8,341 bases of DNA. Source: a virus. Taxonomy: Duplodnaviria; Heunggongvirae; Uroviricota; Caudoviricetes. Made by a program: the position numbers and the translations under genes. Below, piece after piece: positions 1 to 8,341 of this stretch. Numbering within the stretch: the first letter of the stretch is position 1; each line of letters begins with the position of its first letter. The notes beneath the pieces are model-generated. The model had not been told where the DNA came from and did no database searches. It saw nothing but the letters and a program-made list of their open reading frames with translations. The stretch is taken from IMG/VR virus record IMGVR_UViG_2681813265_000006; one strand, written 5' to 3'.

Positions 1-37
1 AACAAATGGTAGTGTCCGCTATTGCCAGTACACCTCA
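1..37. repeat. IR-L: left arm of a 37-bp perfect inverted repeat (partner at 8298..8334)
   Basis: Positions 1..37 are the exact reverse complement of 8298..8334. Each arm carries 5 nt of leader, an ATG and the first 10 codons (MVVSAIASTP) of an ORF reading into the window. Identity breaks at 38 / 8297; the arms may extend beyond the window edges. Confidence 0.9.
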
Positions 38-424: not shown

Positions 425-760
425 ATGAAGTGGATTGTGATTGATACAGTTATCCAGCCATCATGCGGAATATCTTTTTCAGTCATATGGAGTAAAATAA
501 AATTAATAATCTGGTATCAATCGGATGCTTTCTTACCTCCTGAAAGTATATTTACACTGACTCACACAGGCATCATGCTCAATAACAAAGTGCTACCTGT
601 AACCATTTACAACGTAGTACCATTCAATAAAACATTCTGGAATTCAATCAAAAATAGCCAGGAATGCCCTACAAATACAGATAACGTATTGAATGAATGC
701 TTTAATAACCGTTGCACTCTGCAAATATGTCCTTATGGACTAAAACAACAAAGTCCATAA
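425..760 (+). CDS. Hypothetical 111-aa Cys-containing protein encoded in an AT-rich island, on the strand opposite to all phage genes
   Basis: 111-codon open frame in markedly AT-rich DNA (where stop codons are frequent), with a good SD (AAGGA, 6-nt spacer) and a candidate promoter. No family recognised by eye. Confidence 0.35.
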
Positions 761-794
761 GGAGTTTACTCACATCTGACAAAATCAATATAAA

Positions 795-816
795 CAGCCC
801 CTCCGGAGAGGGGCTG
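795..816 (-). terminator. Perfect 9-bp-stem hairpin (CAGCCCCTC-cgga-GAGGGGCTG), terminator-like for minus-strand transcripts
   Basis: Stem 795..803 / 808..816, loop CGGA. On the minus strand it is followed by a U-rich stretch (GUUUAUAUUGAUUUUG); on the plus strand no U tract follows. The 3' arm is the first bases of repeat R2 copy A. Confidence 0.35.
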
Positions 817-1022
817 GAGAGTGGCGCTATGTGCCATTGCATGGTGCCGGGTGCCTCCCGGTGAATTCAGTACCAGCACCTGAATCCGCGATTATCCCAT
901 ATACCTACTCGCTGATTGCCCCTCCGCACAGGGGGATTCACCATGCCAGTTTCTTTTAACAAACTCCCCGCAAACCAGACAACAGTCAACCGCCTGAATT
1001 GTGAAGTATTTAAAAATTTCTC
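811..1022. repeat. R2 copy A: ~212-bp direct repeat (partner at 2136..2347)
   Basis: Offset of exactly 1325 bp between copies. One mismatch in the first ~175 bp, about 6 mismatches in the last ~40 bp. Contains hairpins and a conserved SD + ATG (943). Confidence 0.85.
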
Positions 1023-1748: not shown

Positions 1749-1761
1749 TGAATACCGATAA

Positions 1762-1842
1762 TGGACCGCCATCGGGGACCCGCCCCCGCACCAACAACCC
1801 TGTTATCGTGTCGTCTGCTCTTCCTGATAAGCTAATGGCGGT
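1762..1842 (-). pseudogene. Degenerate tRNA-Arg(UCG)-like gene (argN remnant), copy 1
   Basis: The 5' acceptor/D-arm and the 3' acceptor end match the intact copy at 2467..2543, but the central ~35 nt (anticodon arm, variable region and T-loop) are replaced by unrelated sequence. No canonical anticodon stem or T-loop can be drawn. Confidence 0.55.
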
Positions 1843-1848
1843 TTGTGA

Positions 1849-1924: not shown

Positions 1925-1961
1925 GGGAGCAGAATAATAACGGTCCGTAATTAATTCCGCA
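1925..1961 (-). promoter_or_regulatory. Putative promoter of tRNA cluster copy 1
   Basis: Minus strand: -35 TTGCGG (1957..1962), 17-nt spacer, -10 TATTAT (1934..1939), about 8 nt before the tRNA-Ile 5' end. Homologous to 2627..2664 upstream of copy 2. Confidence 0.4.
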
Positions 1962-1962
1962 A

Positions 1963-1987
1963 TAAAAAACCCGCTCGGCGGCGGGTT
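1963..1987 (-). terminator. Duplicate copy of the late terminator tR'
   Basis: Minus-strand hairpin AACCCGC-cgccga-GCGGGUU followed by U6; same sequence as 4193..4217. Confidence 0.7.
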
Positions 1988-2034
1988 GTAGAAACTCTTC
2001 TAACGTCAGGCATAAAACGCCCATAGTTATGACG

Positions 2035-2062
2035 AATTTACCACAGATTCCGGAAAAATCAA
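2035..2062 (-). promoter_or_regulatory. Duplicate copy of the late promoter PR'
   Basis: -35 TTGATT (2057..2062), 16-nt spacer, extended -10 TGGTAAATT (2035..2043). The initial transcribed sequence has AACTAT where the genuine copy has AACGAT. Confidence 0.6.
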
Positions 2063-2135
2063 CCTAGTTACCTTTTTTAACTGCCGCTCAGCCCATGCTT
2101 CTTCAATATCAAACCGAGTCACCAGCGCATCATAA
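2063..2135 (-). pseudogene. Fragment of the Q 3' end (last ~24 codons) fused to R2; remnant from recombination or duplication
   Basis: About 97% identical to 4301..4373 (Q C-terminal codons plus stop region). It lacks the 8-bp tandem duplication present in the intact gene. Homology ends abruptly at 2135/2136 where R2 copy B begins. Confidence 0.8.
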
Positions 2136-2347
2136 GGGCTGGAGAGTGGCGCTATGTGCCATTGCATGATGCCGGGTGCCTCCCGGTGAATTCAGTACCA
2201 GCACCTGAATCCGCGATTATCCCATATACCTACTCGCTGATTGCCCCTCCGCACAGGGGGATTCACCATGCCAGTTTCTTTTAACAAACTCCCCGCAAAA
2301 CAGACAACTGTCAACCGTCTGAATTGTGAGACATTTAAAAAAAAGGC
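2136..2347. repeat. R2 copy B (partner at 811..1022)
   Basis: See copy A. Begins at the junction with the Q fragment; its other end overlaps the tRNA-cluster terminator. Confidence 0.85.
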
Positions 2348-2362
2348 CCGCAAAAGCGAGCC
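2337..2362 (-). terminator. Rho-independent terminator downstream of tRNA cluster copy 2
   Basis: Minus-strand RNA GGCUCGC-UUUU-GCGGGCC (7-bp stem with one U-G pair) followed by U8. The plus-strand equivalent would have a C-A mismatch and no U tract. Confidence 0.7.
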
Positions 2363-2376
2363 AGGGAAAATAAGTG

Positions 2377-2453
2377 TGGCGCGTTGTACTGGATTCGAAC
2401 CAGTGACCGATTGCTTAGAAGGCAATTGCTCTGTCCGGCTGAGCTAACAACGC
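2377..2453 (-). tRNA. argO: tRNA-Arg (anticodon UCU), copy 2
   Basis: Same cloverleaf as copy 1 but with U4-A69 Watson-Crick instead of U4-G69. Confidence 0.85.
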
Positions 2454-2466
2454 ATGATGCAGATAA

Positions 2467-2543
2467 TGGACCGCCATCGGGGACTTGAACCCCGCGCAGC
2501 CAGCTTCGAAGGCTGGCGCTCTTTCCTGATGAGCTAATGGCGG
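2467..2543 (-). tRNA. argN: tRNA-Arg (anticodon UCG), intact
   Basis: Acceptor CCGCCAU/AUGGCGG, D-stem GCUC/GAGC, anticodon stem CCAGC/GCUGG with loop CUUCGAA, T-arm CGGGG-UUCAAGU-CCCCG, 3' UCCA. Confidence 0.8.
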
Positions 2544-2550
2544 TATGTGA

Positions 2551-2626
2551 TGGTGGCCCTTGCTGGATTTGAACCAGCGACCTGGCGATTATGAGTCGCT
2601 CGCTCTCACCACTGAGCTAAAGGGCC
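2551..2626 (-). tRNA. ileZ: tRNA-Ile2 (anticodon CAU, ileX-like), copy 2
   Basis: Identical to 1849..1924. Confidence 0.85.
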
Positions 2627-2664
2627 GGGAGCCGCATAATAACGACGCGTAATTAATTCTTCAA
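2627..2664 (-). promoter_or_regulatory. Putative promoter of tRNA cluster copy 2
   Basis: -35 TTGAAG (2659..2664), 17-nt spacer, -10 TATTAT (2636..2641); directly abuts the methyltransferase stop codon. Confidence 0.4.
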
Positions 2665-2666
2665 TA

Positions 2667-3725
2667 TCATCCGTTCTGGCTGACTAAATCCTGTACTTCC
2701 CGAACCGTCTGCTCAAAACGTTCAGTCTCCAGCTCAACGCCAATTGCACGACGCCCGAGCGCCAGTGCCGCTTTCACTGTCGAACCCAACCCCATGAAAA
2801 AATCTGCAATCAGGTCACCCGGACGACTGCTAGCGCTGATTATCTGCTGCAGCATTTCTGCCGGTTTTTCGCACGGATGTTTCCCGGGATAGAACTGCAC
2901 CGGTTTATGCGTCCACACATCGGTATACGGCACCTGCACCGTCACGCCAAAATACCGCCGCAGATGTTTATATTCACTCAGCAGCTCCGCATACTGCCGG
3001 TTCAGTGAGGTATACGTATCCACCAGCTGGTGGTGGAGCTTTTCCAGTTCACCACGCCGATGCTTCTCTTCTGCCACCCGGGCAAACAGCGCCTGTAATT
3101 TCAGATAATCGCTTTCATTCGGCAACTGCCACTGACCGGCACTGAACCAGTGCGACACCATGTTTTTCTTTCCTGTGGCATCTGCAATCTGTTTTGCCGT
3201 TATCCCCAGGGCAGCTCGCGCATCACGAAAGTAAGAAATCAGCGGGGCCATCACATGCTGTTTCAGTGCACTGCCCTTCGCCGCATACCCGGCATCTTTC
3301 GGACGATACGGCCCCTGATAATGTTCCGCGAACAGAATGCGCTCTGTGGCGGGGAAATACGCCCGCAGGCTTTCCTTGTTGCATCCGTTCCAGCGTCCGG
3401 ACGGCTTCGCCCAGATAATATGGTTCAGCACACTGAAGCGTTCACGCATCATGATTTCGATATCAGATGCCAGGCGATGACCACAGAACAGGTAAAGACT
3501 TCCGGCAGGTTTCAGCACCCGCCAGAACTGCGCCAGACACTGGTCCAGCCACTTCAGGTAATCATCGTCGCCCTTCCACTGGTTATCCCAGCCCTCAGGC
3601 TTCACTTTAAAGTACGGCGGGTCCGTGACTATCAGGTCAACAGAATTTTCGGGTAACGACCGGATAAATTCCAGGCAGTCGGCGTTGATTAACTCACAAC
3701 TGGATATTTTTACAGTATTAAGCAT
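2667..3725 (-). CDS. Orphan DNA N6-adenine methyltransferase, beta class, prophage-encoded (352 aa)
   Basis: DLIVTDPPYF (motif IV, DPPY) near the N-terminus and FFMGLGSTVKAALALGRRAIGVE (FxGxG motif I, SAM-binding) near the C-terminus; the order IV then I indicates the beta class. The central region has an HTH-like segment (GITAKQIADATGKK...). No restriction endonuclease partner is present in the window. Confidence 0.8.
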   Translation of the reverse strand: MLNTVKISSCELINADCLEFIRSLPENSVDLIVTDPPYFKVKPEGWDNQWKGDDDYLKWLDQCLAQFWRVLKPAGSLYLFCGHRLASDIEIMMRERFSVLNHIIWAKPSGRWNGCNKESLRAYFPATERILFAEHYQGPYRPKDAGYAAKGSALKQHVMAPLISYFRDARAALGITAKQIADATGKKNMVSHWFSAGQWQLPNESDYLKLQALFARVAEEKHRRGELEKLHHQLVDTYTSLNRQYAELLSEYKHLRRYFGVTVQVPYTDVWTHKPVQFYPGKHPCEKPAEMLQQIISASSRPGDLIADFFMGLGSTVKAALALGRRAIGVELETERFEQTVREVQDLVSQNG

Positions 3726-3818
3726 GGATCATTAAGCCTGTCTCTGATAGGCTCATTCTGCTTTTGCGCAAAGCAGTGGGCCTGAGGTTTGCTTGTGAAC
3801 CCAACGCATGAGCAGATG

Positions 3819-3847
3819 GCTGGTGGGTGCCCCTAACACCCACCAGC
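3819..3847. other. Perfect 11-bp-stem palindromic hairpin (GCTGGTGGGTG-cccctaa-CACCCACCAGC) in the methyltransferase leader
   Basis: Seen directly in the sequence; no U tract on either side. A second near-perfect palindrome lies at 3758..3776 (CTGCTTTtgcgcAAAGCAG). Confidence 0.6.
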
Positions 3848-3860
3848 CGCCCATTTACCA

Positions 3861-3889
3861 CAAATAAAAAAGCCTTCACTGCGGAAGGC
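3861..3889 (-). terminator. Rho-independent terminator downstream of the small HTH ORF
   Basis: Minus-strand RNA GCCUUC-CGCAGU-GAAGGC followed by UUUUUUAUUU. The HTH ORF stop codon lies inside the hairpin. Confidence 0.6.
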
Positions 3890-4073
3890 GTCTGTAACAA
3901 CCGAACTGATAGTCTGCCAGACCCGCCATAACCAGCTGGGTCAGTATTAACTGGCAGCGTTCGCGTGAAAGGTAAGTATTCTGCGCTATCTCCCCGACTG
4001 TCGCCGGTTCGGTAACGCTTAATTCATTAAACACCACTCTGGCGGTTTCTGTCATATCCTGCTGTTTTAGCAT
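3876..4073 (-). CDS. Small (65 aa) putative winged-helix / HTH DNA-binding protein
   Basis: Good SD (AAGGA, 6-nt spacer). The segment TVGEIAQNTYLSRERCQLILTQLVMAGLADYQ resembles the recognition helix and wing of small wHTH regulators. First gene of the HTH-methyltransferase cassette. Confidence 0.45.
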   Translation of the reverse strand: MLKQQDMTETARVVFNELSVTEPATVGEIAQNTYLSRERCQLILTQLVMAGLADYQFGCYRRLPQ

Positions 4074-4192
4074 GTCTTTTCCTTTTCCGGTTAACGTGAC
4101 ACACCAATAACTCTTGTCGAAAAAGCCAGCAAGCTGAAAGACAGGTATTCACCGCCACCAGCGCGTTTACTGTACTGACGCGATTTCAGTCA

Positions 4193-4217
4193 TAAAAAAC
4201 CCGCTCGGCGGCGGGTT
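4193..4217 (-). terminator. tR' late terminator ending a short PR' transcript of about 65 nt
   Basis: Minus-strand hairpin AACCCGC-cgccga-GCGGGUU followed by UUUUUUAU, about 40 nt downstream of the predicted PR' start. Confidence 0.75.
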
Positions 4218-4252
4218 GTAGAAACTCTTCTAACGTCAGGCATAAAACGCCC

Positions 4253-4292
4253 ATCGTTATGACGAATTTACCACAGATTCCGGAAAAATCAA
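4253..4292 (-). promoter_or_regulatory. Late promoter PR' with sigma70-dependent pause element (qut region)
   Basis: -35 TTGATT (4287..4292), 16-nt spacer, extended -10 TGGTAAATT (4265..4273), then AACGAT at about +1..+6 (4253..4258). This is the same -10-like pause-inducing hexamer as in lambda PR'. Located immediately downstream of the Q stop codon. Confidence 0.7.
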
Positions 4293-4297
4293 CCTTG

Positions 4298-5119
4298 TTA
4301 CCTAGTTACCTTTTTTAACTGCCGCTCAGCCCATGCTTCTTCAATATCAAACCGGGTCACCAGCGCATCATAAAATTTCTTAACTGTTTTTTCCCATGAC
4401 GCGCGTGTTATCTGGTTTGTCACCTCGCATATAGCATTAAATGCCTCCGTTGATGGTAGTCTTTCATAGCCACGACCACCACAACGCTGGCAGTCTCTGA
4501 TAACAGGCATACCACGTTTTACCGACTCTTCACGATGAATGGCGACACCACGCCCACGGCAATCCTTACAGGCGGTGGAAACCTCACCCTTTCCGCCACA
4601 CTCCGGACAGGCAACTTTTACCACCTCCCTGACTTTTTTCCATTCTTCCCAGTAAGACGGATACACACCTTTCGTACACTTTGCCCATACCGGCGGCTTA
4701 CCATCCGGATACTGGATCTTGTTTGTAAAAACCTCGCTTTCAATAAATTTTTTTCCGTGACAGCAGGGGCACTGTTTTTTGCTCGCCGCGCTACGGGCAT
4801 AATCTTCAAACGCATACGAAGCCATAATACGCATCACTGCCGGTTTTATTTCTGCCGGGAGTTTTCTTAACGCCGCCACGCGATCACACCGACTGAGTGC
4901 ATATTCTGTCAGCAATTCTGTTGCCCGCTCTCTGTCATTCATACTAATGCCCATTTTCCCAAGGAACGCAGAAACCCCCATCTCAGCCCGATTCTGTGTC
5001 ATGCCCTGCGCGGCCATCACATCAGTGATACTCAGCGCATCTTTCGACGTTGAGGCCGATGCATCAGTCAGGCCGGGGGATTTTGGGGAGTAGTATTTCG
5101 GTAAATCTTCCAGTTTCAT
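4298..5119 (-). CDS. Q: Late-gene antiterminator Q (273 aa)
   Basis: Position immediately upstream of a lambda-like PR'/tR' unit. Several CxxC pairs (CPCC, CPEC, CKDC, CQRC) consistent with Q-family zinc fingers. ATGA overlap with rusA. Confidence 0.8.
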   Translation of the reverse strand: MKLEDLPKYYSPKSPGLTDASASTSKDALSITDVMAAQGMTQNRAEMGVSAFLGKMGISMNDRERATELLTEYALSRCDRVAALRKLPAEIKPAVMRIMASYAFEDYARSAASKKQCPCCHGKKFIESEVFTNKIQYPDGKPPVWAKCTKGVYPSYWEEWKKVREVVKVACPECGGKGEVSTACKDCRGRGVAIHREESVKRGMPVIRDCQRCGGRGYERLPSTEAFNAICEVTNQITRASWEKTVKKFYDALVTRFDIEEAWAERQLKKVTR

Positions 5120-5496
5120 TTTTTGACCTGCCCTTCAAGCATTATGGGATAAATCTTCACCCCCAGACGTCCACCAGATACTGGCTGAGCACGAACGATA
5201 TTGATTTCATCAAACTGCTCATCGTCCATTAGCAACCCCGCATGCGTCAGCGCATCCAGCGGCGCTTTCAGAATATTGTCCAGGTCACGGCGGCGCTTAT
5301 CCGGTGGTTCTGCAATAATTTTTATTGCCAACCTTCCGGACAGGCTTAATTTCAGCCGCTGCTGGCGAACAATAAGCGCCACTGCCCGGCGATAACGCTC
5401 CCCGGCTTTTGATACAAAATATGTGCTGCCACGACGACGCCAGTAAGTGTTCACCGTCGGCGGGTAAGGTAAAACAAATTCTATGCGCTCGGTCAT
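5116..5496 (-). CDS. rusA: Holliday-junction resolvase RusA (126 aa)
   Basis: N-terminus MTERIEFVLPYPPTVNTYW and the acidic catalytic region RRRDLDNILKAPLDAL...LLMDDEQ match RusA. Its start abuts the stop of the upstream ORF (TAAATG). Confidence 0.85.
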   Translation of the reverse strand: MTERIEFVLPYPPTVNTYWRRRGSTYFVSKAGERYRRAVALIVRQQRLKLSLSGRLAIKIIAEPPDKRRRDLDNILKAPLDALTHAGLLMDDEQFDEINIVRAQPVSGGRLGVKIYPIMLEGQVKK

Positions 5497-6555
5497 TTAT
5501 GCTTTCCACTTCAGAACACCCGAATTTCTCGCGTGCATTAAAAAACGAATCAGCAACAACAGCTGACTGCCGTGTTTCTCTTCAAAATCTTTTACTCCGG
5601 CATGTAGTTCGTTACGGCATTTACGGCATAACGGAATAACAAACAAATCATCAGCCTTTGTTCCCATCCCTCCCAGTCCATGACCAATGATGTGATGCGG
5701 ATCATCTGCCTGATTGCCACACGTCATGCATTTCTGCGTTTTTACCCAGCGCGTGTATACAGGCATCTCTTCCCGTTGTGATTTCTGGCGCTGGAGATAC
5801 TGAGCCGGTGACTCCGGATCAACGGCAATGCTGACCACCGTCTTTTCCTGTGGTGGGTTCTGTTGCTGGTGGACGTGAGGCAGTAACGCAATATTTTTTG
5901 TGCGCTGCTTCAGTATGCTGGTGGCTGTCTGCTCTCCCGGTATGATGTCGCTTTCACTGTACACAGAGCGAATTTTTTCCGCACGCAACCCCAGCGAACG
6001 ACGTAATACCGCTTCCGGTAGCGCGTCCGCCACCTGATTGCGGACCGCCCACCAGGATAATTCAGCCAGAGATAATTCACGCTCCTGCGTACCGCTTATT
6101 GCGTGACCGATGACGTCAATCATCCATGCTGACAGGTTTTGATGAGCAAGTTGCTCGAGTGATTCGGATGTCTGGTCACGCAGCTGGTTGTCGCAGTGCC
6201 AGCACAACACCATTGCGCCGGTACCATAACGGTGAATGACGGTTTCGCTGTGATGATAATCGCCGTGTGGCCACTGGCAGGATTTAATATGGCGCAACAG
6301 CCAGTCAGACAATGCACCAGCACCACCAGCAGCACGAATCACCCGTGCGTTACTGAAAAACGGCAGCAATGTTTTGTCTTCCACCAGCGGCTGGCGAGCG
6401 GCAGGAACGACCCCGGACGGCAGATTACGCATGCTTTTTGGTTCCGGCTCCACCAGTATTCTGCCGTTATGGAATGCTGACATTGATTCACGGCCTGGCT
6501 TAACGATAACCAGACCGAGTTCCGGTACCAGAACAGGTCGAAGTAATACCCGCAC
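5497..6555 (-). CDS. Prophage nin-region protein, YdfU-like (DUF968) with a C-terminal Cys/His-rich HNH-like motif
   Basis: Synteny hokD-rem-(this ORF)-Q as in the Qin prophage. C-terminal CMTCGNQADDPHH...CRKCRNELH resembles NinG/HNH zinc motifs. The start is ambiguous: GTG 6555 has GGAGG 4 nt upstream; the alternative ATG at 6483 gives 328 aa. Confidence 0.55.
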   Translation of the reverse strand: MRVLLRPVLVPELGLVIVKPGRESMSAFHNGRILVEPEPKSMRNLPSGVVPAARQPLVEDKTLLPFFSNARVIRAAGGAGALSDWLLRHIKSCQWPHGDYHHSETVIHRYGTGAMVLCWHCDNQLRDQTSESLEQLAHQNLSAWMIDVIGHAISGTQERELSLAELSWWAVRNQVADALPEAVLRRSLGLRAEKIRSVYSESDIIPGEQTATSILKQRTKNIALLPHVHQQQNPPQEKTVVSIAVDPESPAQYLQRQKSQREEMPVYTRWVKTQKCMTCGNQADDPHHIIGHGLGGMGTKADDLFVIPLCRKCRNELHAGVKDFEEKHGSQLLLLIRFLMHARNSGVLKWKA

Positions 6556-6630
6556 ATTACCTCCAGATCCGTTGCTGGAATGTGCGGGACGGACGCGTTG
6601 GCCGTTCGGAGTAAGGGAGCCTGACGGAGA

Positions 6631-6912
6631 TTATCCAGTGACGGTAGTCGAGGCTAAGGGCTTTTTTAACCTCGCATCCGCGCCTGCGGTAACACTGAAT
6701 GAGCCATTCGGCCTGTTCTTCAGTGCATGGGGGATGCTGGTACCAATCAGATTTAAATGCGTGAGAGCGCCGCCCGTGCCTGCTGGCAAAGACGGCTGAA
6801 TTATCAGAATTGTGTAGTCTGGAAGGCAGTGGCTGACAATAGCGCCATTCTCAACGCGCACAGTATAGAGGCCATCTTCACTAAAAATTTCACGTAATTC
6901 TTCGATTTTCAT
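6631..6912 (-). CDS. Rem-like small ORF (93 aa) at the position of Qin rem
   Basis: ATG at 6912 preceded by GGAAGGA with an 8-nt spacer. The N-terminal 25 residues look protein-like; the remainder is low-complexity and overlaps a long stop-free alternative frame (see findings). Confidence 0.4.
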   Translation of the reverse strand: MKIEELREIFSEDGLYTVRVENGAIVSHCLPDYTILIIQPSLPAGTGGALTHLNLIGTSIPHALKNRPNGSFSVTAGADARLKKPLASTTVTG

Positions 6913-7033
6913 CAACAGAATCCTTCCAGATAAATAGCACTCCCCTGTTCGGGGTCCATCCCTCTTCTCCCTGCGCGCTACTTAAGTATTTTTGATTCTA
7001 TTCCGGCACCATCTAAAACTTCAAACGCGTTGA

Positions 7034-7064
7034 AAATAAAAACAAAAACCCGCCGAAGCGGGTT
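7034..7064 (-). terminator. Rho-independent terminator of the hok transcript
   Basis: Minus-strand AACCCGC-UUCG-GCGGGUU followed by UUUUGUUUUUAUUUU. A GAAA-tetraloop stem-loop (plus coordinates 7104..7125) lies just after the hok stop. Confidence 0.75.
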
Positions 7065-7132
7065 AAGTGTGGGTGCATTGAGGATGCCTGACCCATCAGA
7101 GGTGGCGAGGGATTTCTCCCCCGCCTGGTCTC

Positions 7133-7288
7133 TTACTCCTCAGGTTCGTAAGCTGTGAAGACAGCGACCTCCGTCTGGCCGGTTCGAATTCGTACCTCGC
7201 AGAGGTCTTTCCTCGTTACCAGTGCCGTCACTATGACGGTTAAACAGATGACGATCAGGGCGATTAACATCGCCTTTTGCTGCTTCAT
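7133..7288 (-). CDS. hokD: Hok-family type I toxin, HokD/RelF-like (51 aa)
   Basis: Translation MKQQKAMLIALIVICLTVIVTALVTRKDLCEVRIRTGQTEVAVFTAYEPEE matches HokD as I remember it. SD AAGGAG lies 9 nt upstream. The ORF-track version (7133..7345) adds an in-frame 19-codon extension. Confidence 0.85.
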   Translation of the reverse strand: MKQQKAMLIALIVICLTVIVTALVTRKDLCEVRIRTGQTEVAVFTAYEPEE

Positions 7289-7499
7289 AGCCTGCTTCTC
7301 CTTGCCTTTCGGCACGTAAGAGGCTAACCTAGATTTGCCGTTCATAGATTGAGCCTCAGATTAATGTTAAGCGTCTTGCCGGACGCGTAATGTTAACTGG
7401 GGCTTTTCTCTATCTGCCTTTTGGTGTTCATGCCTGAGACAGATAGCCTCAAGCACCCGCTGCAATTCTACTTAACTCTCCTTTTCCCGCAAACCGTTT

Positions 7500-7583
7500 T
7501 TATCCCCAGCGGCAAATCGAATACACCACCAGCGCCACCGCCATCGCAATTCCTACCGTTGTTAATGCTTCAGGCCAGGTCAT
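7500..7583 (-). CDS. 27-aa hydrophobic peptide ([27 protein letters not shown]), translationally coupled to gene C
   Basis: Its ATG overlaps the gene C stop (ATGA). A single predicted transmembrane helix. Below the ORF-track size cutoff, found by manual translation. Confidence 0.4.
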
Positions 7584-7924
7584 CGTAAAATATCCTCCAC
7601 GCTTATCAGTCCGTTCCGCTCCAGATAACTCATCGCCTTATCCGGTAATTTGCAGTCTGGCTTCGCTTTCCTCAGTTGCCAGGTTAACTGCTTTACCAGC
7701 ATGGTTAACTCATCGACCAGACGCTGATATCCCACTGGTTTGTATTCATGCAATTTACCGGCTGGCTCTGCTGCCAGCGATACCAGTGCGATTTCCAGAA
7801 CAGCAATATCCATCTTATATGTGCGGATGATGTCATGGTCGATTGTGCCCGGTATGCACAGTCTCTGTGCTTCAATAGTCTCCTCTGCGTGAGCTATTAA
7901 CTGCTCTCTGGTAAAAGTCGTCAT
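7580..7924 (-). CDS. Hypothetical nin-region protein C (114 aa), paralogous to gene B
   Basis: Its ATG overlaps the gene B stop (ATGA). Shares MTTxTxE at the N-terminus and an A(L)xSLxAEP motif with gene B. Confidence 0.6.
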
Positions 7925-8088
7925 GCCGTAGCCCCTTCTTGATATTTTTCAAACCAGAACACAACCGGCTCTGCTTCCAGCGATGCCAGCGCAATCCGTG
8001 CCAGTTCCATTTGTTCACCACGGGTAAGCCCGTTTTCAAGCGGGTTTTTAATGAACAATTCAATACGTTCTTTGGTAATAGTGGTCAT
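7921..8088 (-). CDS. Hypothetical nin-region protein B (55 aa), short paralog of gene C
   Basis: ATG at 8088 preceded by AAGGAG (6-nt spacer), which overlaps the gene A stop. Translation [55 protein letters not shown]. Missed by the ORF track because it is under 60 aa; the track's 7872..8063 ORF is the wrong frame. Confidence 0.55.
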
Positions 8089-8098
8089 GTGTTACTCC

Positions 8099-8329
8099 TT
8101 AACCCGCAGTGCTTTCAACTGATGAGGGGAACAAAATCTTTTCATCAAACCCTGCATTCATATCATGAACAGCAACACACCAATCCATCGACGAACGATT
8201 ATCAAGAGCCTCCATGATTTCATCCATGCGGCGTAGGTCATACAGGTAAATGCTTTTATCGCCAATGGTGTAAAAGCCAATTTTTTTCGGTGATGGATGA
8301 GGTGTACTGGCAATAGCGGACACTACCAT
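8099..8329 (-). CDS. Hypothetical protein A (at least 76 aa), first gene of the coupled A-B-C-D operon; its start lies within IR-R
   Basis: The ORF reads from the ATG at 8329. There is no in-frame stop in the 4 codons upstream before the window edge, so the true start may lie outside the window. No family recognised. Confidence 0.45.
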   Translation of the reverse strand: MVVSAIASTPHPSPKKIGFYTIGDKSIYLYDLRRMDEIMEALDNRSSMDWCVAVHDMNAGFDEKILFPSSVESTAG

Positions 8330-8334
8330 TTGTT
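8298..8334. repeat. IR-R: right arm of the 37-bp perfect inverted repeat
   Basis: Exact reverse complement of 1..37; contains the ATG (8327..8329, minus strand) of CDS 8099..8329. Confidence 0.9.
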
Positions 8335-8341
8335 CTTTTTT

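What the first reader, a model, noticed from the sequence alone, without database searches (positions are those of the whole stretch)
4193..4292. Two copies of a lambda-like PR' to tR' short-transcript unit (StxS-like sRNA candidate)
PR' has -35 TTGATT, an extended -10 TGGTAAATT, and AACGAT at about +1..+6, the same pause-inducing hexamer used at lambda PR' for Q engagement. tR' follows about 40 nt later, predicting a constitutive transcript of about 65 nt. In Stx phages the equivalent short PR' transcript has been reported as a functional sRNA (StxS). A second copy lies at 1963..2062, downstream of only a Q fragment, with the pause hexamer changed to AACTAT. It could express the short RNA and would sit ahead of tRNA copy 1 and the cargo block.
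Basis: partly seen in the sequence, partly recalled or inferred. Interest (0 to 1): 0.45.

Follow-up and report, generated by a model that had tools for sequence, protein, structure and literature searches.

The report
Lambda-type late promoter-terminator unit, twice
Both copies are the standard switch that a lambda-type prophage places after its Q gene (late promoter, pause signal, terminator); it should release a 65-base RNA like lambda 6S RNA, which is unrelated in sequence to StxS and has no shown function.

Summary
Directly after a 273-aa Q gene lie -35 TTGATT, 16 nt, TGG-TAAATT, 6 nt, AACGAT-GGG and a TATG pause site. An intrinsic terminator follows, predicting a 63-66 nt RNA. A second unit, 2230 nt downstream, differs by one base (AACTAT) and follows only the last 24 codons of Q.

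Q belongs to the lambda Q family (PF03589; PDB 7UBM, E 3.5e-41). StxS belongs to the Q21-family cassette (PF06530). The RNA shows no similarity to the 74-nt StxS and lacks its rpoS seed. It is also not the 66-nt HnrS. The closest known relative is the lambda PR'/6S RNA cassette.

The unit occurs in 2439 of 5426 complete E. coli genomes and in Sakai Sp6. The same layout follows Q relatives of about 40% identity, including K-12 Qin. Sequence diversity is low exactly on the predicted functional elements. AACTAT is a natural allele.

The second copy comes from a unique, homology-free join of two known prophage late regions. A trans-acting role for the RNA is untested. Conserved 5' stem-loop, A-rich linker and U-tail keep that role possible.

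Verdict: an ordinary, very widespread cis-regulatory module, a new member of a known kind, of low to moderate interest.

The parts
4298..5119 (-). Q antiterminator gene, 273 aa, lambda Q family, with a roughly 68-aa extra zinc-ribbon insertion
   Evidence: PF03589 at 1.6e-53. PDB 7UBM lambda Q at E 3.5e-41, matching residues 1-113 and 182-273. Alignment A1.
4265..4292 (-). PR' copy 1 core promoter: -35 TTGATT, 16-nt spacer (candidate Q-binding element), extended -10 TGG-TAAATT
   Evidence: Diversity pi is 0.000 for -35, 0.028 for the spacer and 0.024 for -10, against 0.161 at Q third codon positions.
4241..4258 (-). Sigma-dependent pause element AACGAT (+1..+6), GGG (+7..+9), and TATG at +15..+18, which matches the T-N-Y-G pause-site consensus one base downstream of lambda's
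   Evidence: Exact AACGATGGG shared with lambda in the same register. Hexamer positions 2, 5, 6 and the GGG are invariant; positions 3 and 4 are hypervariable. Consensus from PMC9191641.
4193..4258 (-). Predicted 63-66 nt PR'-tR' RNA, copy 1: 5' stem-loop +1..+27, A/G-rich linker, terminator hairpin, U6 tail
   Evidence: Fold -21.4 kcal/mol, z -2.24. The same architecture appears in 16 of 17 relatives folded.
4194..4217 (-). tR' copy 1 intrinsic terminator
2135..2136 (.). Homology-free joint between two prophage late regions. STnc100 is cut before its terminator hairpin and joined to the 3' end of Q.
   Evidence: Window 8341->2135 is 100.000% identical to four complete chromosomes. Window 2134->1 is 99.95% identical to an unrelated IMG/VR contig. 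The joint is absent elsewhere.
2063..2134 (-). Q fragment: last 24 codons, YDALVTRFDIEEAWAERQLKKVTR
   Evidence: repeat D5.
2035..2062 (-). PR' copy 2 core promoter, identical to copy 1
2011..2028 (-). Pause element copy 2, allele AACTAT, with GGG and TATG
   Evidence: The allele is found next to intact Q genes in at least 10 loci.
1963..2028 (-). Predicted 63-66 nt RNA, copy 2
   Evidence: -19.0 kcal/mol; the outer AACG/CGUU pairs are weakened by the G4U change.
1964..1987 (-). tR' copy 2 intrinsic terminator

Best explanation
Each unit is the Q-utilisation cassette of a lambda-Q-family lambdoid prophage. RNA polymerase with sigma-70 is expected to start at PR' in the lysogen. Sigma region 2 then re-binds the -10-like AACGAT/AACTAT at +1..+6, helped by the GGG. 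The polymerase pauses by scrunching at the TATG site (about +17). Without Q it terminates at tR', releasing a roughly 65-nt RNA. When Q is made after induction, it binds the conserved -35/-10 spacer and loads onto the paused complex. That makes the polymerase read through tR' and everything downstream.

Copy 2 has an identical spacer, so Q made from the single intact gene can load there in trans. Polymerase already modified at copy 1 would ignore the copy 2 terminator anyway. Copy 2 is therefore redundant for late-gene control. Its only likely net effect is a second source of the short RNA.

Shown here: sequence anatomy, Q homology, and the conservation and diversity pattern. Inferred: promoter activity, pausing, Q binding, termination, RNA length.
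For: Q is homologous to lambda Q. GGTAAATT-N6-AACGATGGG is identical to lambda PR' in the same register and is not a chance match. The layout matches the published cassette of Q gene, PR', pause element, terminator and late genes, and Pfam PF03589 is the lambda Q family (PMC9388147). TATG at +15..+18 fits the T-N-Y-G pause consensus (PMC9191641).

In 68 distinct sequences, diversity is 0.000 at -35 and GGG, 0.024-0.028 at -10 and spacer, and 0.007-0.013 at the 3' stem and T run. It is 0.161 at Q third codon positions, 0.290 in the discriminator and 0.220 in the terminator loop. Hexamer alleles vary only at the tolerated positions.

The same architecture, with 54-71 nt from +1 to the T run, follows Q relatives of about 40% identity in ten genera and in K-12 Qin. 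The spacers differ by Q subtype. Holin and lysozyme genes lie downstream in single-copy relatives. The unit is present in 2439 of 5426 complete E. coli genomes.
Against: No transcript, pausing or Q-binding data exist for this unit. The generic promoter scan did not call it (8 of 12 hexamer matches). No orphan Hfq peak was listed at the homologous Sakai Sp6 site, although peaks within 100 nt of a gene were excluded there by design. In complete genomes that carry the identical Q, the prophage is riddled with IS elements, so Q may never be expressed. The -35-like element that sigma region 4 uses in lambda (TTGACT) is not conserved here (sequence).
Confidence: 0.85

Rival explanations
1. Beyond its cis role, the roughly 65-nt RNA is a stable, Hfq-associated, trans-acting small RNA made in lysogens. 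This is the functional analogue of StxS that the first reader proposed. The duplication would double its dose. This reading is compatible with the best explanation rather than exclusive of it.
For: There are two precedents: StxS (PMC7547250), and lambda 6S RNA, which is Hfq-bound, present in lysogens and has RIL-seq partners (bioRxiv 10.1101/2024.10.31.621285).

The RNA has a family-wide sRNA-like build: 5' stem-loop, single-stranded A-rich linker (AGAAGAG here, AAGAAAAAGUAGAAA in Qin), then a terminator with a U tail of 4-7. Positions +10..+41 are less diverse (pi 0.047-0.081) than synonymous sites (0.161). An invariant CGTT island at +24..+27 is not explained by the pause paradigm.
Against: There is no similarity to the 74-nt StxS or its seed. 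No target could be predicted, and duplex tests had no power even for the positive controls. No compensatory changes occur in the 5' stem. There is no Rfam family and no EcOnc call in Sakai. The A-tract before a terminator is also a generic terminator feature. The linker differs completely between Q subtypes, which argues against a shared seed.
Confidence: 0.22
2. The second copy is not a biological duplication but an assembly or read chimera that joins two separate prophages of one sample.
For: The joint at 2135/2136 is found in none of 5426 complete E. coli genomes. It is absent from 10 complete chromosomes carrying the identical Q. No second copy occurs in the first 80 IMG/VR loci, fetched with 3-kb flanks. 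The two halves match two different public contigs at 100% and 99.95%. The window looks like a whole short-read contig, with ends in a shared inverted repeat and at an IS boundary.
Against: The two sequences share no homology at the joint, so a repeat collapse or a k-mer graph walk cannot produce it. A deletion that fuses two neighbouring prophages, or an illegitimate recombination, gives exactly this structure. Both units are intact natural alleles.
Confidence: 0.18
3. The unit is a leader-peptide attenuator. The ATG at +5 would open a 22-codon ORF (MGVLCLTLEEFLQPAAERVFYD) that runs through the terminator.
For: Weak Trp_leader matches cover both copies (25.7 and 21.8 bits, E 0.08 and 0.87). 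An ORF is listed at 1887-2024.
Against: The matches are below the gathering score of 41. A 4-nt leader leaves no room for a Shine-Dalgarno sequence. The ATG is part of the invariant AACGATGGG pause element. ORF length and end differ between copies and relatives.
Confidence: 0.02

Closest known systems
Phage lambda PR'-qut-tR' cassette and its 6S RNA
   Same: Same Q protein family (PF03589; E 3.5e-41 to PDB 7UBM). Same position directly after Q. Same TAAATT -10 with upstream TG. The same AACGATGGG sits 6 nt after the -10. A T-N-Y-G pause site is present. The 5' end of the RNA can fold back on itself in both.
   Different: The terminator lies 65 nt from the start rather than 194 nt, and no orf-64 equivalent overlaps the RNA. 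The spacer (candidate Q-binding element) is unrelated in sequence and 16 nt rather than 17 nt. The pause site is shifted by one base. Q carries a roughly 68-aa extra zinc ribbon where the lambda Q arm begins. Beyond the first 9 nt the RNAs are unrelated.
StxS (EcOnc15) of Stx1/Stx2a phages
   Same: It is also the product of the constitutive late promoter stopped at tR' in lysogens. It is followed by the same ileZ-argN-argO tRNA block. The window terminator is 21/24 identical to a hairpin at +24..+48 of the long StxS precursor.
   Different: StxS belongs to the Q21-family cassette (144-aa Q, PF06530). It has a 258-nt precursor processed by RNase E to 74 nt. There is no sequence similarity to the 74-nt RNA and its rpoS seed is absent here.
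Unannotated unit downstream of ydfT/quuQ in the K-12 Qin cryptic prophage
   Same: Q is 42% identical and carries the same kind of insertion. The layout is -35, 17 nt, TGn, -10, 6 nt, AACGATGGGC, with TAT at +15..+17 (TATA here; TATG in most relatives) and CGTT. The predicted RNA is 63 nt with the same three-part fold.
   Different: The spacer and linker sequences differ. Cold-shock genes rather than tRNAs and a methylase lie downstream.
HnrS (EcOnc10-12), 66-nt multicopy prophage sRNA
   Same: Same size class, prophage-borne, multicopy, with an intrinsic terminator (PMC13502914).
   Different: It is a different locus and strand: between the Rz and HNH/terminase genes, antisense to the late operon in Sp12. 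It carries CUACCCAAUCAGUAC, complementary to the end of mazF. The window has no such sequence (best 11 of 15).

Membership tests
Lambda-Q-family late regulatory cassette (Q gene, PR', sigma-dependent pause element, terminator, late genes) | An adjacent upstream Q gene of the lambda Q family | tested here: met
   PF03589 at 1.6e-53. PDB 7UBM/4MO1 at E 3.5e-41. Copy 2 has only a 24-codon remnant.
Lambda-Q-family late regulatory cassette (Q gene, PR', sigma-dependent pause element, terminator, late genes) | A sigma-70 promoter directly after Q | tested here: inconclusive
   Sequence is TTGATT/16/TGG-TAAATT. The elements are invariant across 68 variants. Activity is not testable here, and the generic scan scores it 8 of 12.
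Lambda-Q-family late regulatory cassette (Q gene, PR', sigma-dependent pause element, terminator, late genes) | A -10-like pause element in the initial transcribed region, with a discriminator-like GGG and a T-N-Y-G pause site | tested here: met
   AACGAT/AACTAT at +1..+6, GGG at +7..+9, TATG at +15..+18. Only the tolerated hexamer positions vary. Pausing itself was not tested.
Lambda-Q-family late regulatory cassette (Q gene, PR', sigma-dependent pause element, terminator, late genes) | A Q-binding element between -35 and -10 | not testable with these tools
   The spacer is conserved within each Q subtype (pi 0.028) and differs between subtypes. That pattern fits a Q-binding element, but binding was not shown.
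Lambda-Q-family late regulatory cassette (Q gene, PR', sigma-dependent pause element, terminator, late genes) | An intrinsic terminator before the late genes | tested here: met
   Hairpin plus U6 in both copies. Different hairpin sequences are kept in relatives. Lysis genes lie downstream in relatives.
StxS | Sequence homology to the 74-nt StxS | tested here: not met
   Local alignment score 13 against a shuffle mean of 12.5; 125 of 300 shuffles score as high.
StxS | Seed pairing with the rpoS leader at the DsrA/ArcZ/RprA site | tested here: not met
   The StxS seed UGUAACGAA pairs at -115. The window RNA has none; its best stretch lies inside the terminator stem.
StxS | Encoded after the 144-aa Q, as a 258-nt precursor cut by RNase E | tested here: not met
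   Q here is 273 aa and PF03589, against PF06530 for the StxS-linked Q. The unit is only 65 nt long.
StxS | Hfq binding and accumulation in lysogens | not testable with these tools
   No expression data can be read here.
Lambda 6S RNA | A transcript running from PR' to tR' of a lambda-Q-family cassette | tested here: met
   Met by position and by the shared first 9 nt. Length (65 vs 194 nt) and the rest of the sequence differ.
HnrS | [quoted passage not shown] | tested here: not met
   Best match in the window is 11 of 15. There are no hits with up to 3 mismatches. HnrS maps elsewhere in Sp12.
Any Rfam 15 family | Covariance-model match at or above the gathering score | tested here: not met
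   Only Trp_leader matches at 25.7 and 21.8 bits, against a threshold of 41. Rfam also has no model for StxS or lambda 6S RNA.

The most novel reading that the evidence does not exclude
The 63-66 nt PR'-tR' transcript of this lambda-Q-subfamily cassette may be an unnamed family of constitutively made, Hfq-associated prophage small RNAs. The cassette is present in about 45% of complete E. coli genomes, in IS-rich complete chromosomes carrying the identical Q (at least one is Shigella sonnei 53G, from my own knowledge of the accession), in Sakai Sp6 and, in a variant form, in K-12 Qin. Under this reading, the conserved 5' stem-loop, the CGUU island at +24..+27 and the A-rich linker are RNA-level features rather than DNA signals. 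Copy number, here two in one late region, would set the dose.
Probability: 0.2. Interest if true: 0.6.

Novelty: new member of a known kind. Interest (0 to 1): 0.3.

Why it matters
The cis function is textbook, so the unit itself changes nothing. It is, however, one of the commonest non-coding modules in E. coli prophages, present in 2439 of 5426 complete genomes with up to four copies per genome. Two other late-promoter by-products, StxS and lambda 6S RNA, have turned out to bind Hfq. If this RNA acts in trans it would be a widespread, dose-variable prophage regulator. It could be checked at once in existing Sakai and K-12 data sets.

The natural allele series at hexamer positions 3 and 4 is also a ready-made set for studying how pause strength tunes Q loading.

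Tried and rejected
1. Identity with HnrS, suggested by the matching 66-nt size, was rejected by locus, strand and sequence.

2. Homology with StxS was rejected.

3. Rfam search at a permissive E-value gave nothing relevant. Rfam lacks StxS and lambda 6S models, so that negative carries little weight.

4. Duplex-energy tests against the rpoS and hha leaders had no power. The true pairs StxS/rpoS and HnrS/hha did not beat shuffles either, so the test is uninformative.

5. Covariation in the 5' stem: 94.7% of cells pair, against 26-42% when the partner is slid. There are no double-sided changes, and the column shuffle is not exceeded, because the 5' side is frozen by the pause element. The result is inconclusive.

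6. The leader-peptide reading was rejected.

7. Searches for the duplication joint in E. coli genomes, IMG/VR loci and genomes with the identical Q found nothing.

8. An alignment-based scan of viral contigs returned only close relatives (at least 92% identity), so diversity came from the genome scan instead.

9. Literal sequence search of the paper library gave no hits. Searches on ydfT/quuQ gave no transcript report.

10. Supplements with the Sakai transcription-start table are not held.

Full report
**Context.** Read on the minus strand, the window is the right-hand regulatory region of a lambdoid prophage. The gene order is:
- three small ORFs, then hok/sok, DUF968 and RusA;
- a 273-aa Q gene (5119-4298) and unit copy 1;
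- a 65-aa ORF and an N6/N4 DNA methylase;
- tRNA-Ile(CAU), tRNA-Arg(UCG) and tRNA-Arg(UCU);
- an STnc100 sRNA gene that has lost its 3' hairpin, a 24-codon Q remnant and unit copy 2;
- a second, partly degenerate tRNA set, two small ORFs and a full STnc100;
- an IraM-like gene on the other strand, and the start of a DUF1737 ORF.

**Observation.**
- Copy 1 has -35 TTGATT (4292-4287), a 16-nt spacer, TGG-TAAATT (4273-4265), CGTCAT, AACGAT (4258-4253) and GGG.
- Its terminator AACCCGC-CGCCGA-GCGGGTT (4217-4198) has a T run ending at 4194.
- The distance from the predicted start to the end of the T run is 65 nt.
- Copy 2 lies 2230 nt downstream and is identical from -35 to the T run except G to T at +4.
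- The composite motif is expected 0.00 times by chance and occurs twice.

**What it is.** The Q protein is a true homologue of lambda Q.
- It matches PDB 7UBM at E 3.5e-41, over residues 1-113 and 182-273, and Pfam PF03589.
- It carries a roughly 68-aa insertion with extra CxxC pairs. The insertion sits where the zinc-ribbon 'arm' of lambda Q begins.
- Against lambda PR', the unit shares GGTAAATT, a 6-nt gap and AACGATGGG exactly and in register.
- The published cassette for this family is a Q gene, PR', a sigma-dependent pause element, a terminator and late genes (PMC9388147).
- In lambda the pause is at +16/+17 on a T-N-Y-G site (PMC9191641). Here TATG occupies +15..+18.

**Comparative evidence.** The unit is very common and its layout is shared well beyond close relatives.
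- It is present in 2439 of 5426 complete E. coli genomes, with up to four copies per genome.
- It follows ECs_1524 in Sakai prophage Sp6.
- It is 100% identical in several complete, IS-rich chromosomes that carry the same Q. One of these is HE616528, which I know as Shigella sonnei 53G.
- Downstream of Q relatives of only about 40% identity, in ten genera and in K-12 Qin (ydfT/quuQ), the layout recurs: -35, 17 nt, TGn, -10, 6 nt, AACGATGGG, then a terminator 54-71 nt from the start. The -35/-10 spacer differs by Q subtype.

**Diversity pattern.** I compared 68 distinct sequences of the close group.

| Element | Diversity (pi) |
|---|---|
| -35 | 0.000 |
| GGG | 0.000 |
| T run | 0.007 |
| 3' terminator stem | 0.013 |
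| -10 | 0.024 |
| Spacer | 0.028 |
| Q third codon positions (neutral benchmark) | 0.161 |
| Terminator loop | 0.220 |
| Discriminator | 0.290 |

- The hexamer has eight alleles: AACGAT, AATGAT, AACTAT, AATAAT, AAAGAT, AACAAT, GACAAT and GATGAT.
- Positions 2, 5 and 6 never change. That is what a site read by sigma region 2 should show.
- AACTAT is thus a normal allele, found next to intact Q genes.

**Relation to StxS and other named RNAs.**
- StxS comes from the cassette of the 144-aa Q, which is PF06530, the Q21 family. Its 258-nt transcript is cut to 74 nt.
- The window RNA shows no similarity to that 74-nt RNA. It lacks the seed UGUAACGAA, which I recovered pairing at -115 of the rpoS leader.
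- Only the terminator resembles a hairpin at +24..+48 of the StxS precursor (21 of 24 bases).
- The 66-nt HnrS was checked because of its size. It lies between the Rz and HNH genes, antisense to the late operon. It carries a mazF complement that the window lacks.
- Rfam has no family for this unit, nor for StxS or lambda 6S RNA.
- The nearest known RNA is lambda 6S RNA. A preprint reports it as Hfq-bound and present in lysogens.

**The RNA itself.**
- In 16 of 17 relatives folded the RNA folds the same way: a 5' stem-loop over +1..+27 (AACG with CGUU, UGGG(C) with (G)YCY), an A-rich single-stranded linker, and a terminator with a U tail.
- The stem pairs in 94.7% of cells, against 26-42% when the partner is slid. 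It shows no double-sided compensation, because its 5' half is the pause element.
- The invariant CGTT at +24..+27, and the low diversity of +10..+41, are not explained by the pause paradigm.
- This keeps a trans-acting role possible but unproven. No target could be predicted with any power.

**The second copy.**
- Window 8341->2135 is 100.000% identical to complete chromosomes, and 6824->2135 to IMG/VR contig 2531839193_000006.
- Window 2134->1 is 99.95% identical to a different contig, 2734482560_000006, in which a full Q precedes the AACTAT unit.
- The joint at 2135/2136 has no shared homology and is found nowhere else.
- The 'duplication' is therefore the head of one late region joined behind another, by illegitimate recombination or by a deletion that fused two prophages. 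An assembly chimera is less likely but not excluded.
- Functionally, copy 2 keeps an identical spacer, so it can be served in trans by the one Q gene. It is redundant for late-gene control.
- The tRNAs behind it have their own promoter-like site (TTGCGG-17-TATTAT).

**Verdict.** The PR'/tR' reading is right, and the StxS analogy holds for position only. This is an ordinary, extremely widespread cis-regulatory module, with an open and cheaply testable question about its RNA by-product.

Noticed in passing
window 2135/2136; halves 2135-8341 and 1-2134: The window is a mosaic of two known prophage late regions, 100% and 99.95% identical to different public sequences. They are joined without homology. 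The joint cuts STnc100 before its terminator hairpin.
   Followed up: yes
window 786-975 (-) and 2125-2300 (-): Two copies of the Rfam sRNA STnc100 (132 and 104 bits); the second lacks its 3' hairpin. In Sakai Sp5 the same family starts just after stx2B. By my own coordinate arithmetic its 3' end coincides with the EcOnc27 Hfq peak.
   Followed up: partly
window 1-37 and 8298-8334 (extends to 8341): A perfect inverted repeat brackets the whole block. It is really at least 44 nt long, because a related contig continues with the same CTTTTTTT beyond window position 1. The right end abuts an IS element in complete genomes. The window therefore looks like one whole short-read contig.
   Followed up: partly
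window 4298-5119 (-), residues 114-181: Q carries a roughly 68-aa insertion with extra CxxC pairs at the start of the lambda Q zinc-ribbon arm. That arm contacts the Q-binding element and sigma region 4. The insertion is shared with K-12 QuuQ and other relatives and is absent from lambda Q.
   Followed up: partly
window 4232-4235 (-) and 2002-2005 (-): An invariant CGTT island at +24..+27 of the predicted RNA is conserved across Q relatives of about 40% identity. It is unexplained by the known pause elements. It can pair with AACG at +1..+4.
   Followed up: partly
L001 1369-1395 (Sakai Sp5, +24..+50 of the StxS precursor): A terminator-like hairpin with a U7 tail sits only 24-50 nt after the mapped Stx2 phage PR' start. 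The transcript is nevertheless reported to run 258 nt. A shorter, roughly 48-nt species may have gone unprobed.
   Followed up: no
window 425-760 (+): An IraM-like anti-adaptor gene (NF007393, E 4.7e-48) lies in the cargo region, on the opposite strand. IraM is annotated as an RpoS stabiliser, a theme shared with StxS, which activates rpoS.
   Followed up: no
window 7133-7458 (-): A hok/sok-type toxin-antisense module: Rfam sok at 112 bits, plus a 70-aa Hok-family ORF.
   Followed up: no
window 1935-1963 (-) and 2636-2664 (-): Promoter-like sites TTGCGG/TTGAAG-17-TATTAT sit directly in front of each tRNA-Ile. The first starts within the end of the tR' T run. This matches the separate tRNA promoter reported in Stx2 phage.
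   Followed up: no
window 1749-1848 (-): The middle tRNA (Arg-UCG) of the downstream tRNA set is degenerate. ARAGORN finds it only in the upstream set, at 2467-2543.
   Followed up: no
window +3, +4 and +11 of the RNA (4256, 4255, 4248): Three positions are hypervariable, with several recurrent alleles on different backgrounds. The rest of the unit is nearly frozen. This may tune pause strength.
   Followed up: partly
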